From the human T2T-CHM13v2.0 reference genome, Homo sapiens: a stretch of DNA of 64,000 bases. The translations under genes were made by a program, and so were the position numbers. This document shows positions 21,192-59,099 of the stretch, piece by piece (the stretch's first letter is position 1; every line of letters begins with the position of its first letter). The stretch lies in the NCBI RefSeq assembly GCF_009914755.1, contig NC_060933.1, one strand, 5' to 3'. Under the pieces are notes generated by a model that did no database searches, had not been told where the DNA came from, and worked only from the letters and a program-made list of their open reading frames with translations.

Positions 21192-21277
21192 CTTTCTGAA
21201 TGGCAGTGGAAGGCCTGTCTTTAAAGTACTGTTTGTAGTGGAAGCAGAAGTTCACACAAACAAGCTGCTGCATCTTC
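21192..21277 (-). other. RFX3: Candidate 86-nt alternative 5' cassette exon of RFX3 containing an ATG
   Basis: Acceptor TTTTGTTATGTAG|GAAGATG, donor AAG|GTGAAA; an alternative donor TCT|GTGAGT would end the exon at 21123. Unique sequence. Confidence 0.55.
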
Positions 21278-22101
21278 CTACATAACAAAACTATTATTGA
21301 GTAGTAGAGTAGGGGAATTATGACATCAGCAGTATATTAACCAATTACTCTACCAAATACTTAATATCTACTGATAAGCCTGCTACTGTATCATTGGCTT
21401 AATTTCATAAAGTCAACTATTATTTTTCTACCTTTAATTGAAACTTCCTTTGATATAGGCTTAATGTTTAGTCTATGAAACCACTATGAAAATATATGTG
21501 GCATATACACTTATTTGACTGCCATTTTAGAATGACAAACCCATACATCACACAGGGTCACATATGGGTATCAAAGGACAGGAAAAGACTAACCTATGAG
21601 TCTCATATTTGTGCTCTCAAAGCACTCTGAGTAGTGCCTGAAAATTTTACATTATTGGAGTTCCAGTGCTCTTTCTTTATTGTTCCTCTATAAAACTCTG
21701 TGTGGCAGTTATGACTTTTAAATGCAGCATGACCTTAATCCTACCTGGGGCAGGATTGGTTGGGATGGGAAGTTGGTAGGTGGAAAGGAAGGAATTCTCT
21801 TCTGGTTTTTACAGCACCACCGAAAGCTAGGTTAACTGAAGCATTTAAAAATATAAACTGAAAACACATAACTATGTAAATAATACTGTTTTCTTGAAAA
21901 CATATATAGTAGTGATAGAAAATAAAGTTCTTCACCATATTAACTATTGCCAACCATCAAGAAAGGAAAAACATCAAAATATGAAAAAAGAAAATTACTA
22001 TTGAAAAAATTCAGACATGAGACTCCATATATGACATCTGAAAATACTCTGTATTATGTACACACAGTTCATTATTTATAAAGAACATGTGTTCAAATTA
22101 C

Positions 22102-22168
22102 CTCATATTCCTTCCAGAGCCAAACTCAACGTATTCTCTACCATAAAATGCCAGAATGACCAAGTGGC
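22102..22168 (-). other. Candidate 67-nt alternative 5' exon
   Basis: Acceptor TTCTTGCTTTTAATATTTTAG|G and donor GAG|GTAATT. Confidence 0.4.
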
Positions 22169-25100
22169 CTAAAATATTAAAAGCAAGAACAATTAGTTCA
22201 CATTAAAAATGAATTTTTTGATATGTAGAAGCCATGTGACTATTTAAAATTATTAAGTTTATAGATAAGTATTAATTATATTAATTACATAACTGAATTA
22301 TTTTAGAAGTATTTCTTCACATGAATGCACTGATATTTTTAGATGTTTCTGATTTAGCCAAAAAAGATACTGTTTTTGATTTTACATGAGAGAATTTTTA
22401 GTTTTCAAAGAACTATAATTCAAAGAATAATCATAGTATTGTAATAATAAGAAATATAAATTAGGGGAAATCTCAGAAAAAGCATTCTTTAAAAGAATAT
22501 GTGCTTTTAAACTGTGAAGATGAGAGAGCAAACAATTCTGAAAATCACCCTGCTAATTTCTTGTAGAGAAGCAAAAGTGAGAATGATTTAGCAGCTGACA
22601 TGCATTTGCTCATTCCTTAAAAATAATTTAGTTTTATAGAAATTTTTAAAAGAAAGATCTTTTGTTCAAGGAAGGAGAATACACAAGTTATTTTTAAACT
22701 AATGATCTTTATTGGCTAATAAAGTAAATGTGGAGTAGCAATGATATACAAACATACTTACATGTATGTGTTTATGTATGTTCCCTAAATTTGGCCCATG
22801 ATATCAGAGATCAACTTATTACAACGTATATCTGATAATTTAGTTAACTATAAAGAGCATCGTAGTTACCCGGCATGATTTGGCTTTACCTTTTTTCTTT
22901 AAAGGTAAAGGTGACATTAAGTGACAGTTGCCATAAATTTTTATATTGCTCCATTAGACATAGAAAAGTAACAAAGCAAACAGGCACAGCTGAGTATATA
23001 TGAATAGGCAACAGTCTAAATACACATATTTGAGATTACTTGAAGAAGACAGGACAAGGATCACTAAAACAATCACAGGTGTTTGCTGTGTATTTAGGTG
23101 ATAACAAACCAGATACATCAAAAATGTAATAATCTACAATAATCAACACACTTGGATTCTCGAAAAGAATTTGGCAATTTTAACCATATTATTACATTTT
23201 CTTACTTTACTCTCAGTATATTTTCTGACATGAGGCCTTATATGTTATTAACTAAACGACTACACAATACTTCTTAACAATTTTGAGCAACATGAGTCAA
23301 ACATATCTGCAGTTATAAATGTTTATAATTCACCCTACTCCATTACTTCTAATCCTTTTCTCCTACTACCTTTCCCTATATACACCTTGCAAATATCAAG
23401 TGAAAATTTTAGGCCAGTCTACAGTCATCTGTGTTCTTCTTTCCAAATAGGTTACAAATAAAACCTATTCTTTGAACATATCTTTCACTGTTTCATATCT
23501 CATTGTGAGCAAAAACCACAGTTGCTTAGGATCTCTTTGTTTTTTATGATTACAACTTCCTCAGGTATACCAGTTTACTGATGATACAAATTTCTGTCAC
23601 TCATCTTAACTTTAAAATCCAATTCATTTCTTAAAAGTTCCTTCTTGTATATTATTCAATTATTCATTTAAGAAAGACTAGTTGTTTGGTATCACACATA
23701 CAAAAATTAAATATATAATACAGTCTCCCCATACTAATAGTTTACAGATGACCATGCTAATCGATGCTATCTACCTACAATCCAAAGTGCTACATTGGCC
23801 TCACCCACAAGACCTTATTTTCCTTGTTTCTTTCTATATTCTACAATGACTTTATTTTCATCTCTGGCACAACTATTCAAAATATCTACTCTGCCCTTCA
23901 AAATTTATTGAATCAGTACTAGATGCTTGGCAATGTGCTAGAAGGTAATTAGGTGCTGGAGGATATAACGGTGAGCAAAACATGGCTATTCTACATTCAG
24001 GTCCCATTCTACCAACTCCCAAATACTGTCCTACTTTCTCAGTGGCTCCATAATTCTCCTGAAACCCAGTGATCTTTCATCTTTTTTCACTCACATTTTC
24101 TCATACCCCATAACTAAGAGTAAATAAGCCCTGCTCATTTGACACTCATGTCAGATGTCCCTTCCAGCACAACCGTGAGACTCAGGCGAGAGGGCCCATT
24201 GCCCTTGGGCCACTCACTTTAGAGAGCTTGCTTTGGCCCTCTGGCCAGGTACCTCCTTGGGAGGCAAGAAGTCTGCACAGCCCAGGGCCATGCTCCCCGA
24301 GTCCTTCAGACTCTACTTCAGCACATTCCCAGGACCCCAAATTCCCATGCAAAGTTCTTGACTATACTCCTCATGACAGATGGAGATTCAGGCATACTCA
24401 ACTCTACGCCTACAGGGTAGTCAACAGATAGCTTGCAAGGGGTGGGGCAACATTGCCTGCAGGATGATCTTGTGGGCATGCTATGGCAAAGAGCCCAGGA
24501 TATGAAAAATGGAGGTAGACTGCAGGACACAGATGAGGTGACAAAGGGTCAGCTCTCCCTTTGCCACTATGCTCTAGAACAGAACTGCTAAAAAAATCTG
24601 AGAATTCTAAGTGGTCATTTATCTCATTATAAAGCTGTTTCTGGTCAAGTTAGGAGGTCAGAGGATGTTTGATTTAACCACTTCTTTACTGATATGCAAC
24701 ATTTAAGTATGGAGAAATATAGTGAGTGAGCTTTCATTTGTATTCTTGCTCTTATTGGTGTCGGGGTGGGCCTGATTCCCCACATCCTATTTACAAGGAT
24801 GGTTGCCCAGCCTGAATCTTCATTATAACTCATCAAATAATAACAATATTATTATTATAGTAGTAGTAGTCATAAATGTTGTATTGATAATAATTTACTG
24901 AGGGTCCTAGCATGGTGCCAGGCATCTAACCTGTTGTAGGCTCTTTCACACCCTCAGTAATATTTACAACCCCACTGGCTAGTTGTTATCTACATCTTAT
25001 CCATGAACTGAAAGTAAAAGACTAGCAGAAAAAGGATTTCAACCAAAGTCTTTCTCAATTAAAAGCCCAAGTTCTGTACCATATGCTTCCTTTCAGATGA

Positions 25101-25225
25101 TTGAGAGAGGTTCCCCTGACTTCTGATCCACTCTGCTATCTATCCTACACAGATGTGCCAGATTAATCTCCCTAAAGGGCCACTTTCATCTAAACACGTG
25201 ATCCATTTTTAAAAAATATACACTG

Positions 25226-57255: not shown

Positions 57256-58165
57256 CCAAAGAAGAGAGAGGAGACAGACTTTAAAAAAGAAAAACATCTT
57301 TCCCAGTACAGCAAAGAGGGCCCAACGAACAGGCCCCAGGTTTCAATATGTGTGCAAGGGGTGTGTGGGGGGGGGGAGAAAGAGGGGGAGGGAAGAGTGC
57401 TGAATGGATGTTAAGACTGTTTGCCGCACAAAGAAAATACAGTTTTAAAAAGAAAAAAGAAAACCATGAAGCTGATGATGGTGAAAGAAGAGCAGCCCAT
57501 TCAGCACCAGGCAAAGAGGGGCAAAAATGAAGGGAATGGGCGGTGGGAAAAGTTCACCAACGTATGAGGATTAAAAATAACAAAACCCATAACAAGGCCC
57601 CACAAGTGAACAACAACAACAACAAAACACCACCTCTTGGGTCCCCCCCTTGCACACTGTTGTCTATTTCGGCTTTGAAAGAAGCAGGAAACAGCAGCGT
57701 TGGAAAAGAAGAAAATTAAAGAAAGAACAAATTCTTATCTCTTCACCTGACCCTCCTCCTCAGACCAGACCTAAGGGAAAGATCCAGCATCCGCATCGGA
57801 AAACTGTGGCTCCCTCTCCCGCTCGGCTCGCAGCCCCCCAAGCTCCCGCTCCATCCCTGAAGTGCGGCCGGCGCAGGGCCGGGGCCGGCGGGCGGCGCGG
57901 CGCCCACACCCCCGACCCAGCCGCGGCGCGCAGGGTCCATTGTAAACAAGCCCGGGGAACAGAGCCCCTCGGCGGCGGCGCCGCAGCGGCAGCCCCCGTG
58001 TCAGGAGTGAGACCCCAGCACAGCCACACTCGGCTCGCACACACGAACACACACACGCACGGACACACGCGTTCACACGCAGCCACACGCTCCCACACAC
58101 ATGTAGAGACCGAAGAATATTCACCTTGGCTGTGGATTATTGTGGTGTTGTTGGTGGGTGATGGA

Positions 58166-58230
58166 GATGGTGGTGGTGGGGAGGAGGAGGAGGAAGAGGA
58201 GGAGGAGGAGGAGAGGAGTAGTTGTTGTTG
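58166..58230 (-). repeat. Trinucleotide repeat cluster in exon 1: (CAA)3, (TCC)n, (CCA)n
   Basis: Plus strand TGG, GGA and TTG runs. Confidence 0.92.
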
Positions 58231-58304
58231 ATGGGTAACAGTCGCCAGGACTACGGTGACTATGGCGCTTGATTCACAAGGCAACGGTTGCTATAACTCA
58301 CAAA

Positions 58305-58351
58305 AGAGAGAGAGAGAGGGAGAGAGAGAGAGAGCGAGAGGGAGAGGGAGA
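58305..58351. repeat. (GA)n/(CT)n tract in the 5' leader
   Basis: Seen directly. Confidence 0.92.
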
Positions 58352-59099
58352 CACTCGCACGGGGAGGGGTGGGGGAGGGAAGAGGGGAGGAGGCGGGCCC
58401 GGCCAAGCCGCCGGAAGGGGAGGGCGCAGCGCTGTGACTGACGGCCCCCAAACCCGGGTGGGGTGGCGGGGCGGCGGGGTGACGGGGCACGAGGCCGGGA
58501 TTCCACCGCAGGACTCCGAAGAGGTGCGCCTATGCTTGGCTGGGGCTGAGGTCACCAAGAGTCCTCTCGGAGGGACGTTACTACACGCGCTGGCGAGGCC
58601 CAGGAGTCGTGGTGCGAGGGGTACTATCTGTGAAACGAGGGCTGCCTGTCCCAGCAGCCAGCTTTGTACAGAGACGTCCCGGAGCCACGAGAGAGTAACG
58701 GCTAACCCGGGGGAGGGGGTGGCGAGGGTGATTCCAGGCACTTTGTGAAGAAACGAGCTATGGCGAGGGAAGAATCCACTTTGAAGAGCGGCCCCCGCCC
58801 TGCCCGATACGTTACTTCCGGGGCGGGGCGGGCAGAGGGGCCCGGATGTGCCGCCGCTTTTTAGTTTCTGAGGCGCCGGCGGTGTTCCTGGTAGCGTCAG
58901 CCTCCTGGCTTTTCCTTTTCCTGGACGCTTCAGGGCTCCGCGGCCTGCGCTAGACTGGAGGGTCCGCGTCACTCTCGCCCTCCTGCTTTCCGCGCTCTCA
59001 CCCGCTCCCGCCTCCTGAGGGCACGACTTGTGGAGGAGCGCGGGCGGCGGGGCGTGAGCGAGCTGCCTCTGCCGCCATCTTAGAGAAGGCGAGCGTGGG

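What the first reader, a model, noticed from the sequence alone, without database searches (positions are those of the whole stretch)
21192..59078. Possible N-terminal switchboard: several alternative 5' exons each deliver an open frame in the same phase
Seen: three independent minus-strand donors (58125, 56968, 21192) each terminate an open frame in phase 1, started by CUG, ATG and ATG respectively. Splicing exon 1 to the 86-nt cassette closes the CUG frame (G|GA AGA TGC AGC AGC TTG TTT GTG TGA) while supplying a new ATG, so those two extensions would be mutually exclusive. Two other CpG-island ATG frames (donors at 59002 and 57747) exit in phase 2, which is in frame with the cassette ATG. 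Inference: splicing in intron 1 could select among RFX3 N-termini or uORFs. Caveat: each phase match has a 1 in 3 chance and the exons were picked by eye.
Basis: inference. Interest (0 to 1): 0.7.

Follow-up and report, generated by a model that had tools for sequence, protein, structure and literature searches.

The report
RFX3 alternative 5' leader exons
The human RFX3 gene has several alternative untranslated 5' exons; a few could on paper lengthen the protein's N-terminus, but the comparisons made here show no sign that these frames are conserved or translated.

Summary
The first coding exon lies 72.6 kb outside the window and has only 8 nt (AGACCATC) before the RFX3 ATG, with no stop. Phase 1 is therefore the phase in frame with the protein.

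This intron position is old. In the paralogue RFX1 the acceptor also lies 8 nt before the homologous Met, and there the upstream exon is coding and exits in phase 1. In 23 frog RFX3 models a conserved 31-aa N-terminal exon, with or without a 17-aa cassette, joins at the same point.

For the human exons, function is not supported:
- Exon 1's open frame matches its composition (38% of shuffles).
- Donors 56968 and 59002 and the 86-nt cassette acceptor are not in RefSeq.
- The cat model for the 21.2-kb exon has Ala where human has the ATG and switches between all three human frames.
- RFX3 is absent from two catalogues of extended proteoforms.

Most alternative exons add uORFs. An NCBI human model (isoform X4, MNGETI-MQTSE) already uses another phase-1 exon. 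Verdict: ordinary 5' leader heterogeneity, with a latent and largely unselected capacity for N-terminal extension.

The parts
58125..58379 (-). RFX3 exon 1 (selected RefSeq transcript). It is a 255-nt pyrimidine-rich untranslated leader exon with donor AAG|GTGAAT. It splices to the first coding exon, which lies OUTSIDE the window at window -72625 to -72749 (chr9:3399375-3399251): cag|AGACCATC ATG..., encoding MQTSETGSDTGS...VQQVPVQQQ, then |gtaagg.
   Evidence: Hub annotation. No ATG is present. Composition is C 118, T 66, A 46, G 25. Joined to exon 2 it gives a 263-nt leader with 0 uAUGs and 58 in-frame open codons. Exon 2 was located. Its junction is confirmed by the E-T-I residues before MQTSE in 9 models.
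58126..58248 (-). In-frame CUG-started frame in exon 1: 41 codons in the exon and 44 codons upstream of the main AUG. The context is gtagtcCUGgcg, with G at -3 and G at +4.
   Evidence: The in-frame stop TAG lies at 58293. The other in-frame near-cognate codons are TTG 58284, ATA 58263, ATA 58140 and ATC 58137. The frame is matched in 25-38% of shuffles.
57747..57885 (-). Alternative first exon from a second start site inside the CpG island. It exits in phase 2.
   Evidence: Hub annotation. Its first uAUG, gggAUGg, opens a 27-codon uORF. Spliced straight to exon 2 it has 3 uAUGs, 2 of them ORFs that overlap the main AUG out of frame.
56866..57885 (-). Long alternative first exon of 1020 nt.
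   Evidence: Hub annotation. It holds 15 uAUGs when joined to exon 2. Donor 56968 is ATG|GTACTT and is not in RefSeq. The extension of an elephant model maps to 57442-57314 at 54.5% identity with indels.
59002..59078 (-). It lies upstream of the RefSeq RFX3 span and opposite exon 1 of the plus-strand lncRNA.
   Evidence: phase 2, ATG 59078. No RefSeq RFX3 exon is present here (hub annotation).
56016..56147 (-). 5' UTR cassette exon.
   Evidence: Hub annotation. Including it leaves only 5 in-frame open codons and adds 4 uAUGs; after exon 1 the first of these opens an 11-codon uORF.
22102..22168 (-). 5' UTR exon carrying a 13-codon uORF, MVENTLSLALEGI*.
   Evidence: Hub annotation. The first 9 residues are identical to the start of a pilot-whale RFX3 model (P0026), which then stays open where the human frame stops.
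21192..21281 (-). Alternative first exon with RefSeq 5' ends at 21281, 21270 and 21257. ATG 21273 lies in phase 1, which on paper gives a 30-codon extension.
   Evidence: None of the three RefSeq starts follows an AG. Only the 21281 form contains the ATG, 8 nt from the 5' end. The cat model has A in place of the M and moves through all three human frames.
20599..20718 (-). 5' UTR cassette with tandem acceptors 3 nt apart (20718 and 20715). It carries a 10-codon uORF in the strong context gccAUGg. A further alternative 5' exon lies downstream of it and OUTSIDE the window, at window -47289 to -47402 (chr9:3424711-3424598). That exon ends ATG AAT GGA G|gtaagg, in phase 1.
   Evidence: Hub annotation. 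Every enumerated path that includes 20718-20599 leaves only 14 in-frame open codons, so it closes all upstream extensions. The outside exon accounts for the N-terminus MNGETI-MQTSE of the NCBI model 'RFX3 isoform X4 [Homo sapiens]' (P0028). It also holds two earlier AUGs that open a 44-codon ORF overlapping the main AUG out of frame.

Best explanation
This region is the multi-promoter, multi-exon 5' leader of RFX3. The default mRNA joins exon 1 to exon 2. Its 263-nt leader has no AUG, so scanning ribosomes start at the annotated AUG, 8 nt into exon 2.

The intron before that AUG is ancient and was, or elsewhere still is, a phase-1 coding junction. It is coding in RFX1 and in frog RFX3. Because the 8 nt carry no stop, any upstream exon that exits in phase 1 with an open AUG frame produces an N-terminally extended RFX3 on paper. 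Exons that exit in other phases, or that contain stops, give uORFs or overlapping ORFs.

In human, the alternative exons mainly load the leader with uAUGs and short uORFs. Their most likely effect is to lower or tune RFX3 translation in a promoter- or tissue-specific way. The in-frame candidates arise and vanish neutrally between lineages. Where such a transcript exists the extension may be made, but it is probably incidental.

Shown: the frames, the phases, the 8-nt junction, the RFX1 and frog homology of the junction, and the lack of frame conservation. Inferred: the translational consequences. No expression or ribosome data could be consulted.
For: - Exon 2 structure and the phase rule.
- Exon 1 joined to exon 2 gives 0 uAUGs.
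- In the 98 enumerated paths, every path containing 20718-20599 leaves only 14 in-frame open codons. In paths from the P2 promoter the first AUG opens a 27-codon uORF (gggAUGg). In paths where 22168-22102 supplies the first AUG it opens a 13-codon uORF.
- Exon 1's open frame is explained by composition: 72% pyrimidine, and matched in 38% of 3000 shuffles.
- RefSeq donors are not enriched for phase-1 start frames: 2 of 7 against a base rate of 0.21.
- Extensions in other species' RFX3 models are non-homologous between mammalian orders. 44 of the 120 listed proteins carry some extension.
- Where those extensions map to human DNA, human has stops or frameshifts. The cat exon maps to 45913-45812 at 82% identity with one stop. 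The Leopardus exon maps to 21232-21164 with two stops and in another frame. The camel and marmot exon maps just upstream of exon 2, with a stop.
- The Leopardus model reads LCRKAQQ where human reads LCRKMQQ, then follows human frame 0 and then frame 1.
- RFX3 has 0 occurrences in the 9 readable supplements of Fedorova et al. 2022 (PMC9789052). Its PhyloSET sheet, which I read, lists genes by name. RFX3 also has 0 occurrences in the one supplement held for PMC11317171.
Against: - The CUG at 58248 is in frame, in a good context (G at -3, G at +4), inside the default leader, and has no AUG before it. Some initiation there cannot be excluded.
- ATG 21273 would be the first and only uAUG if exon 1 spliced to an acceptor at 21277, or in the transcript that starts at 21281.
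- A whole-exon ATG frame such as that of the 86-nt exon is rare in shuffles (0.4% in that phase). It occurs at 3-5% of intronic pseudo-donors.
- The junction is a true coding junction in RFX1 and in frogs, so an N-terminal extension has precedent in this family.
- NCBI already models a human extended isoform.
- The catalogues searched rest largely on cell lines that may express little RFX3 (my assumption). One large supplement (MOESM5) and the PDF supplements could not be read.
Confidence: 0.75

Rival explanations
1. The default RFX3 mRNA makes a second, CUG-initiated proteoform. A fraction of scanning ribosomes start at CUG 58248 in exon 1 and read 44 codons across the exon 1/exon 2 junction into the annotated Met. 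The extension reads LATVTHQQQLLLSSSSSSSSSSSPPPPSPSPTNNTTIIHSQ-ETI. It adds a Ser/Pro-rich tail comparable in style to the Pro/Gln-rich N-terminal exon of RFX1.
For: - The CUG is in frame, with no stop on the way to the main AUG.
- Its context has G at -3 and G at +4, and no AUG lies anywhere in the leader.
- In RFX1 the homologous junction joins a 106-codon coding exon in the same phase.
Against: - An open frame of this length occurs in 38% of shuffles of this C/T-rich exon, and a CTG/ATG frame at least this long occurs in 25%.
- There is no sequence similarity to the RFX1 exon beyond composition: 56% of 2000 residue shuffles score at least as high.
- RFX3 is absent from the readable lists of conserved or Ribo-seq-supported non-AUG extensions and from a proteomics-based list.
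- In the predicted fold the CUG sits inside a small hairpin, not upstream of one.
- Whether the main start sites lie upstream of 58248 is not known here.
Confidence: 0.1
2. This is a true AUG-based N-terminal switch. Tissue-specific promoters or splicing bring in phase-1 exons with their own AUG. These are ATG 21273 (30 codons) and the MNG exon at window -47393 (6 codons). The resulting RFX3 proteins have different N-termini and different properties. Inclusion of exon 20718-20599 switches the extension off.
For: - The frames are as stated.
- RefSeq has three 5' ends at 21257-21281, which suggests an internal promoter (hub annotation).
- An NCBI human model carries MNGETI-.
- In frogs a conserved 31-aa exon, with or without a 17-aa cassette, does this at the same junction: 23 proteins, 7 short and 16 long, with 21 of 31 and 12 of 17 columns invariant.
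- A mouse inner-ear preprint notes that the NCBI Rfx3 isoforms differ at the N-terminus (10.1101/2024.09.24.614849, passages read).
Against: - Only one of the three RefSeq 5' ends includes ATG 21273, and there it lies 8 nt from the cap. From general knowledge of scanning, that is too close for efficient recognition.
- The acceptor that would make the exon a cassette is not annotated.
- The cat orthologue lacks the ATG and shifts frame twice.
- The MNG exon has two earlier AUGs (taaAUGg, agaAUGc) that open a 44-codon out-of-frame ORF across the main AUG.
- Mammalian extensions are mutually non-homologous.
- No protein among the cluster representatives of 85-2000 aa shares words with the 21.2-kb frame. 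This is weak evidence, because isoforms are merged at 90% identity.
- The frog exons have no match in 186 kb of the human locus at E < 0.05.
Confidence: 0.12
3. Part of the pattern is not real biology. Donors 56968 and 59002 and the acceptor at 21277 are sequence look-alikes that are never spliced, so the 'switchboard' is smaller than drawn.
For: - None of the three is in the RefSeq exon list supplied with the finding.
- Donor 56968 is a weak match to the donor consensus (ATG|GTACTT; consensus recalled from general knowledge).
- About 1% of 367 intronic pseudo-donors end an ATG frame of at least 41 codons in phase 1, so roughly 4 such sites are expected by chance.
Against: RefSeq is not exhaustive, and other annotation sets and junction databases could not be consulted. 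Donor 59002 (CGG|GTGAGA) is a reasonable donor within a bidirectional CpG-island promoter.
Confidence: 0.6

Closest known systems
Genes with alternative promoters or 5' UTR exons that change uORF content (general class; reviewed in PMC13631847, which I saw only as a search listing and abstract)
   Same: There are several first exons and leader cassettes upstream of one main AUG. The alternative exons add uAUGs and short uORFs, some in strong context (gccAUGg).
   Different: No translational measurement exists for RFX3 in anything I could read. Here the main AUG sits only 8 nt past an acceptor, so the exit phase of the upstream exon alone decides between uORF and extension.
N-terminally extended proteoforms from in-frame upstream AUG or non-AUG starts (PANTs; Fedorova et al. 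2022, PMC9789052: abstract, supplement list and one supplement part read)
   Same: There is an in-frame upstream CUG in good context and no intervening stop.
   Different: RFX3 appears in none of that paper's readable supplementary files. The open frame is explained by composition.
Human RFX1 N-terminal coding exon
   Same: The acceptor lies exactly 8 nt before the homologous Met codon: RFX1 cag|AAGGTGCC ATG, RFX3 cag|AGACCATC ATG. The downstream peptides align at E = 2.9e-6. The upstream RFX1 exon exits in phase 1.
   Different: The RFX1 upstream exon has its own ATG and a 106-codon Pro/Gln-rich ORF. RFX3 exon 1 has no ATG and no significant similarity to it (shuffle fraction 0.56).
Anuran RFX3 models with MRLKNNLDEVTAAGTCQDHAIETHRNWMQHG, with or without GDMFILRKGLEGCEVGK, before MQTSE
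   Same: Alternative N-termini are chosen by splicing at the same junction, and the cassette preserves the frame.
   Different: The frog exons are conserved from Ascaphus to Xenopus, Bufo and Hyla (names as given). The human and other mammalian extensions are lineage-specific. The frog exons have no detectable counterpart in the human locus.

Membership tests
5' leader heterogeneity with uORF control | Several alternative first exons or leader cassettes upstream of one main AUG | tested here: met
   The RefSeq exon list from the hub shows three clusters of 5' ends (58379; 57885/57882; 21257-21281) and cassettes 56016-56147, 22102-22168 and 20599-20718. Splice sites were checked.
5' leader heterogeneity with uORF control | Alternative exons introduce uAUGs that terminate before the main AUG or overlap it | tested here: met
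   One search finds uORFs of 10, 11, 13 and 27 codons, and overlapping ORFs in several paths. One search finds a 44-codon overlapping ORF in the MNG exon.
5' leader heterogeneity with uORF control | A measured effect on translation of the main ORF | not testable with these tools
   No Ribo-seq, polysome or reporter data could be reached. Searches found no paper on RFX3 leaders.
N-terminally extended proteoform (AUG or non-AUG) | An upstream start in frame with the CDS and no stop between them | tested here: met
   CUG 58248 (44 codons), ATG 21273 (30 codons), ATG 56887 (10 codons) and the MNG exon (6 codons).
N-terminally extended proteoform (AUG or non-AUG) | Conservation of the extension as coding sequence | tested here: not met
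   For the ATG exons, the orthologous cat, camel, marmot and elephant segments carry stops, indels or frame changes relative to human. For exon 1 there was no direct test; RFX3 is absent from the PhyloSET sheet and the other readable supplements of PMC9789052.
N-terminally extended proteoform (AUG or non-AUG) | Ribosome-footprint or peptide evidence | tested here: inconclusive
   RFX3 has 0 occurrences in the readable supplements of PMC9789052 and PMC11317171. One large file and the PDFs were unreadable.
Homologue of the RFX1 / anuran RFX3 N-terminal coding exon | The same intron position and phase relative to the homologous Met | tested here: met
   The leader after the acceptor is 8 nt in both RFX3 and RFX1, and the RFX1 upstream exon exits in phase 1. 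Frog models join 3 residues before MQTSE.
Homologue of the RFX1 / anuran RFX3 N-terminal coding exon | Sequence similarity of the upstream exon | tested here: not met
   The local alignment of the exon 1 phase-1 peptide to the RFX1 exon scores 36, against a shuffle mean of 37.0. The frog extensions have no tblastn match at E < 0.05 in chr9:3350001-3536000.

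The most novel reading that the evidence does not exclude
Human RFX3 keeps a working remnant of an ancestral N-terminal coding exon. The junction 8 nt before its AUG is the same phase-1 coding junction used by RFX1 and by frog RFX3. The AUG-free default leader lets a share of ribosomes start at the well-placed in-frame CUG 58248. This would give a 44-residue Ser/Pro-rich extended RFX3. 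Inclusion of leader cassettes that close the frame (the 86-nt exon, or 20718-20599) would switch that extension off.
Probability: 0.08. Interest if true: 0.55.

Novelty: new member of a known kind. Interest (0 to 1): 0.3.

Why it matters
RFX3 is a cilia and neurodevelopment transcription factor, and its dosage matters. That haploinsufficiency causes a neurodevelopmental disorder is recalled knowledge, not checked here.

The practical consequence concerns variant reading. The last 58 codons of the default leader are open in frame with the CDS. A variant that creates an AUG in that frame would therefore lengthen the protein, not make a uORF. A new AUG in either other frame would make an upstream or overlapping ORF.

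The paralogue and frog comparison also gives a clean example of one intron position serving as a coding junction in some family members and as a UTR junction in others. If the human extensions were real, antibodies and constructs based on the 749-aa form would miss them.

Tried and rejected
- **Exon 1 as a decayed copy of the RFX1 N-terminal exon.** Rejected. The alignment score is no better than shuffles.
- **Finding paralogous first coding exons by searching the genome with the RFX3 exon-2 peptide.** Only the exon itself was found. RFX1's exon was then found by local tblastn. RFX2's first coding exon is not in L009.
- **Protein database search with the 21.2-kb frame.** The first query was too short. 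A 48-codon contiguous stretch gave no candidate. This is weak evidence, because isoforms cluster at 90% identity.
- **X-box (RFX site) scan as a sign of autoregulation.** The motif was recalled from memory. There is one canonical match in the window, at 40649, and none in the promoter or exon 1.
- **A hairpin downstream of the CUG that might aid initiation.** Exon 1 folds somewhat better than shuffles (z = -2.39), but the CUG lies inside the small hairpin, not upstream of it.
- **Literature.** Searches found no paper on RFX3 leader exons, uORFs or N-terminal extensions. PMC3411717 reports that a predicted RFX3 cassette-exon change under hypoxia could not be validated (passage read). The preprint 10.1101/2024.03.12.584681 discusses only C-terminal RFX3 isoforms (passages read). 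PMC8718366 was irrelevant.
- **Sources that could not be used.** The supplement held for PMC6283423 is only 60 characters long and holds nothing useful. The GENCODE Ribo-seq ORF paper is not held. Earlier findings of this scan were not open.
- **Parts outside the window.** They are now described in the text of neighbouring parts.

Full report
**What is there**

The window holds the 5' end of RFX3 on the minus strand: exon 1, its CpG-island promoter, and the first 58 kb of intron 1.

The arithmetic is right.
- Exon 1 (58379-58125) has a phase-1 frame open for 55 codons, with CTG at 58248 and no ATG anywhere.
- A GT at 56967 follows a phase-1 frame of 63 codons, with ATGs at 57097 and 57049.
- The stretch 21277-21192 is open throughout in phase 1 from ATG 21273.
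- Donors 59002 and 57747 end ATG-containing frames in phase 2.
- Joining exon 1 to 21277 closes the CUG frame at a TGA after 8 codons and puts ATG 21273 in frame.

These are donor 56968 (the annotated donor is 56866), donor 59002 (upstream of the annotated gene span), and the acceptor at 21277. RefSeq starts that exon at 21281, 21270 or 21257. None of these positions follows an AG, so they are transcript 5' ends and not acceptors.

**The missing piece: which phase matters**

The genome behind the window can be searched. A Pfam RFX1_trans_act scan placed RFX3 coding exons at chr9:3350440-3350547 and 3334108-3334293. I then fetched the 122 kb between these exons and the window and found the start exon at chr9:3399375-3399251, which is window -72625 to -72749.

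It reads cag|AGACCATC ATG CAG ACA... and encodes MQTSETGSDTGS...VQQVPVQQQ, followed by |gtaagg. Only 8 nt precede the AUG, and they contain no stop. An upstream exon is therefore in frame with RFX3 only if it exits in phase 1 (x|AG ACC ATC AUG).

The default leader (exon 1 plus 8 nt, 263 nt in all) has no uAUG and is open in frame for 58 codons. The junction has independent support. An NCBI model named 'RFX3 isoform X4 [Homo sapiens]' begins MNGETIMQTSE. Nine of the listed models carry E-T-I immediately before MQTSE.

**The junction is an old coding junction**

A local tblastn with the exon-2 peptide found the homologous RFX1 exon (E = 2.9e-6). It begins cag|AAGGTGCC ATG CGG GCC AGC GAG..., which again puts exactly 8 nt between the acceptor and the homologous Met.

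Ten kb upstream lies an RFX1 exon with its own ATG and a 106-codon Pro/Gln-rich frame (MATQAYTELQ...QQYIVVTVS). It ends ...TCT G|gtaagt, in phase 1, giving G|AA GGT GCC ATG = E-G-A-M. The RFX3 initiator Met therefore corresponds to an internal Met of RFX1.

A protein search with a downstream RFX3 exon returned 120 listed vertebrate RFX3 entries. Of these, 47 start at MQxSE, 44 carry something before it, and 29 show no such motif in the first 160 residues; many of these are partial or start at a later exon.

Among the 44 are 23 frog proteins with a conserved extension, MRLKNNLDEVTAAGTCQDHAIETHRNWMQHG. Sixteen of them also carry the cassette GDMFILRKGLEGCEVGK and 7 do not. The extension is followed by two more residues (T-T in most models) and then MQTSE. 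Invariant columns number 21 of 31 in the exon and 12 of 17 in the cassette, across species from Ascaphus to Xenopus, Bufo and Hyla. A splice-selected N-terminus at this junction therefore appears real in frog gene models.

**Are the human frames more than chance?**

Exon 1 is 72% pyrimidine and only 10% G, so stops are scarce. A phase-1 frame at least as long occurs in 38% of 3000 dinucleotide-preserving shuffles. A CTG/ATG-started frame at least as long occurs in 25% in that phase and in 61% in any phase. Its peptide has no similarity to the RFX1 exon beyond composition (score 36 against a shuffle mean of 37.0; 56% of shuffles score as high).

Across the 7 RefSeq donors in the window, 2 end an ATG-started phase-1 frame, and 4 do if CTG counts. 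The base rates at 663 G|GT pseudo-donors are 0.21 and 0.36.

Frames of the 56968 type (ATG, at least 41 codons, phase 1) occur at 1.1% of 367 intronic pseudo-donors.

The 86-nt exon is the least ordinary. An ATG frame spanning the whole exon in that phase arises in 0.4% of shuffles and at 3-5% of pseudo-donors. That test is post hoc.

**Cross-species check of the ATG exons**

Extensions in other mammals' models all end in ...ETI-MQTSE or close variants, but they are mutually unrelated. Examples are whale MMAHSTGSISL-, cat MSFGSSSLPFGLQTLERMPRDDTQCPEQHLDLKEW-, Leopardus MGWLCRKAQQFGVG..., camel, marmot, elephant and cotton rat.

I mapped them onto 186 kb of the human locus:
- The cat exon is window 45913-45812, at 82% identity, with a stop in human.
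- The camel and marmot exon lies just upstream of exon 2, with a stop in human.
- The elephant extension maps to 57442-57314, with indels and L where the elephant model has its initiator M.

A three-frame comparison shows that Leopardus reads LCRKAQQ where human reads LCRKMQQ, so it has no ATG there. It then follows human frame 0 (TSASSTT against TSASTTN). It then follows human frame 1 (ALEREAFHWCSER against VL*RQAFHCHSER*) and runs past the human donor. Two frame changes, two stops and a missing start between a primate and a carnivore are what non-coding sequence does.

The human 13-codon uORF in exon 22168-22102 (MVENTLSLALEGI*) shares its first nine residues with a pilot-whale model. The whale model then stays open. 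This is again a frame that differs between lineages.

**What the alternative exons do on paper**

I enumerated 98 combinations of annotated or proposed first exons and cassettes joined to exon 2.
- Any path with 20718-20599 leaves only 14 in-frame open codons and adds a 10-codon uORF in strong context (gccAUGg).
- Every path from the second promoter (57885) meets gggAUGg and a 27-codon uORF first.
- Paths with 56147-56016 or 22168-22102 add short uORFs of 11 and 13 codons.
- The long first exons carry 15-28 uAUGs.

ATG 21273 is the first AUG only in two cases. One is exon 1 joined to a 21277 acceptor, which is unannotated. The other is the transcript starting at 21281, where the ATG lies 8 nt from the 5' end. 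The other two RefSeq 5' ends exclude it.

The exon behind human isoform X4 (chr9:3424598-3424711, ATG AAT GGA G|gtaagg) has two earlier AUGs. They open a 44-codon ORF that overlaps the main AUG out of frame. The dominant predicted effect of leader choice is therefore on how many ribosomes reach the RFX3 AUG, not on what N-terminus they make.

**Published evidence**

RFX3 does not occur in any of the 9 readable supplementary files of Fedorova et al. 2022 (PMC9789052). The PhyloSET sheet, which I read, lists conserved non-AUG extensions by gene name. One large text file and the PDFs could not be read.

RFX3 is also absent from the single supplement held for a proteomics survey of translated 5' UTRs (PMC11317171).

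Six full-text searches found no paper on RFX3 leader exons, uORFs or extended forms. A mouse preprint remarks that NCBI Rfx3 isoforms differ at the N-terminus and that 'exon 2' is not expressed in the inner ear (10.1101/2024.09.24.614849, passages read). The GENCODE Ribo-seq ORF paper is not held.

**Verdict**

The in-frame property of phase 1 is real and rooted in an ancient coding junction.

The evidence favours ordinary 5' leader heterogeneity. The default leader is AUG-free, the alternative exons are uORF-laden, and the in-frame ATG frames come and go between lineages without constraint.

The one candidate I cannot dismiss by sequence is CUG 58248. It lies in the default leader, in frame and in good context (G at -3, G at +4). 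I give about a 10% chance that it yields a meaningful proteoform. No expression, ribosome or alignment data for mammals were within reach, so these remain the deciding experiments.

Noticed in passing
Proteins P0063-P0100 (23 frog RFX3 models; no DNA held): Anuran RFX3 models carry a conserved 31-aa N-terminal exon (MRLKNNLDEVTAAGTCQDHAIETHRNWMQHG). Sixteen also have a 17-aa in-frame cassette (GDMFILRKGLEGCEVGK) and 7 do not. This looks like a genuine splice-selected N-terminus at the junction that is untranslated in human. I found no match in the human locus.
   Followed up: partly
L025, RFX1 start codon near C19:14120133: The RFX1 initiator ATG sits inside GTTGGCATGGCAAC. This is one mismatch from the palindromic X-box that RFX proteins bind (consensus recalled), and it hints at autoregulation through the RFX1 start region.
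   Followed up: no
window 45812-45913 (minus strand): This stretch is 82% identical at the protein level to the N-terminal exon of a cat RFX3 model (P0023). It is not in the human RefSeq exon list. Human has an in-frame stop, so it may be a conserved leader exon or regulatory element.
   Followed up: partly
chr9:3399490-3399543 (window about -72457 to -72510), just upstream of exon 2: This sequence is homologous to the N-terminal exons of the camel and marmot RFX3 models (MHGLSW*YVG in human). It may be a further alternative leader exon whose frame is closed in human.
   Followed up: partly
window 58278-58291 and 58238-58257 (minus strand, exon 1): AGCAAC-C-GTTGCC consists of two RFX half-sites in everted order. 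GTCACCGTAGTCCTGGCGAC is an imperfect palindrome that forms the small hairpin around the CUG in the predicted fold. Neither fits the canonical X-box pattern.
   Followed up: partly
window 40636-40649 (minus strand): This is the only canonical X-box match in the 64-kb window (GTTACCAGAGTAAC), and it lies deep in intron 1.
   Followed up: no
window 20715-20718: Tandem acceptors 3 nt apart (tag|CAG|CC) give the two RefSeq exon starts, 20718 and 20715.
   Followed up: no
window 57215-57270 and 58300-58345 (minus strand): There is a long (GT)n run inside the long alternative first exon. Exon 1 contains (CT)n and (CCT)n runs. Length variation in the 3-nt repeat would keep the exon 1 frame.
   Followed up: no
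window 56866-56891 (minus strand): The human phase-2 frame RMYEGSQLE at donor 56866 resembles the start of a cotton-rat RFX3 model (MYEASQLE..., P0032). This suggests the exon end is shared with rodents, although in human it exits out of frame with the CDS.
   Followed up: no
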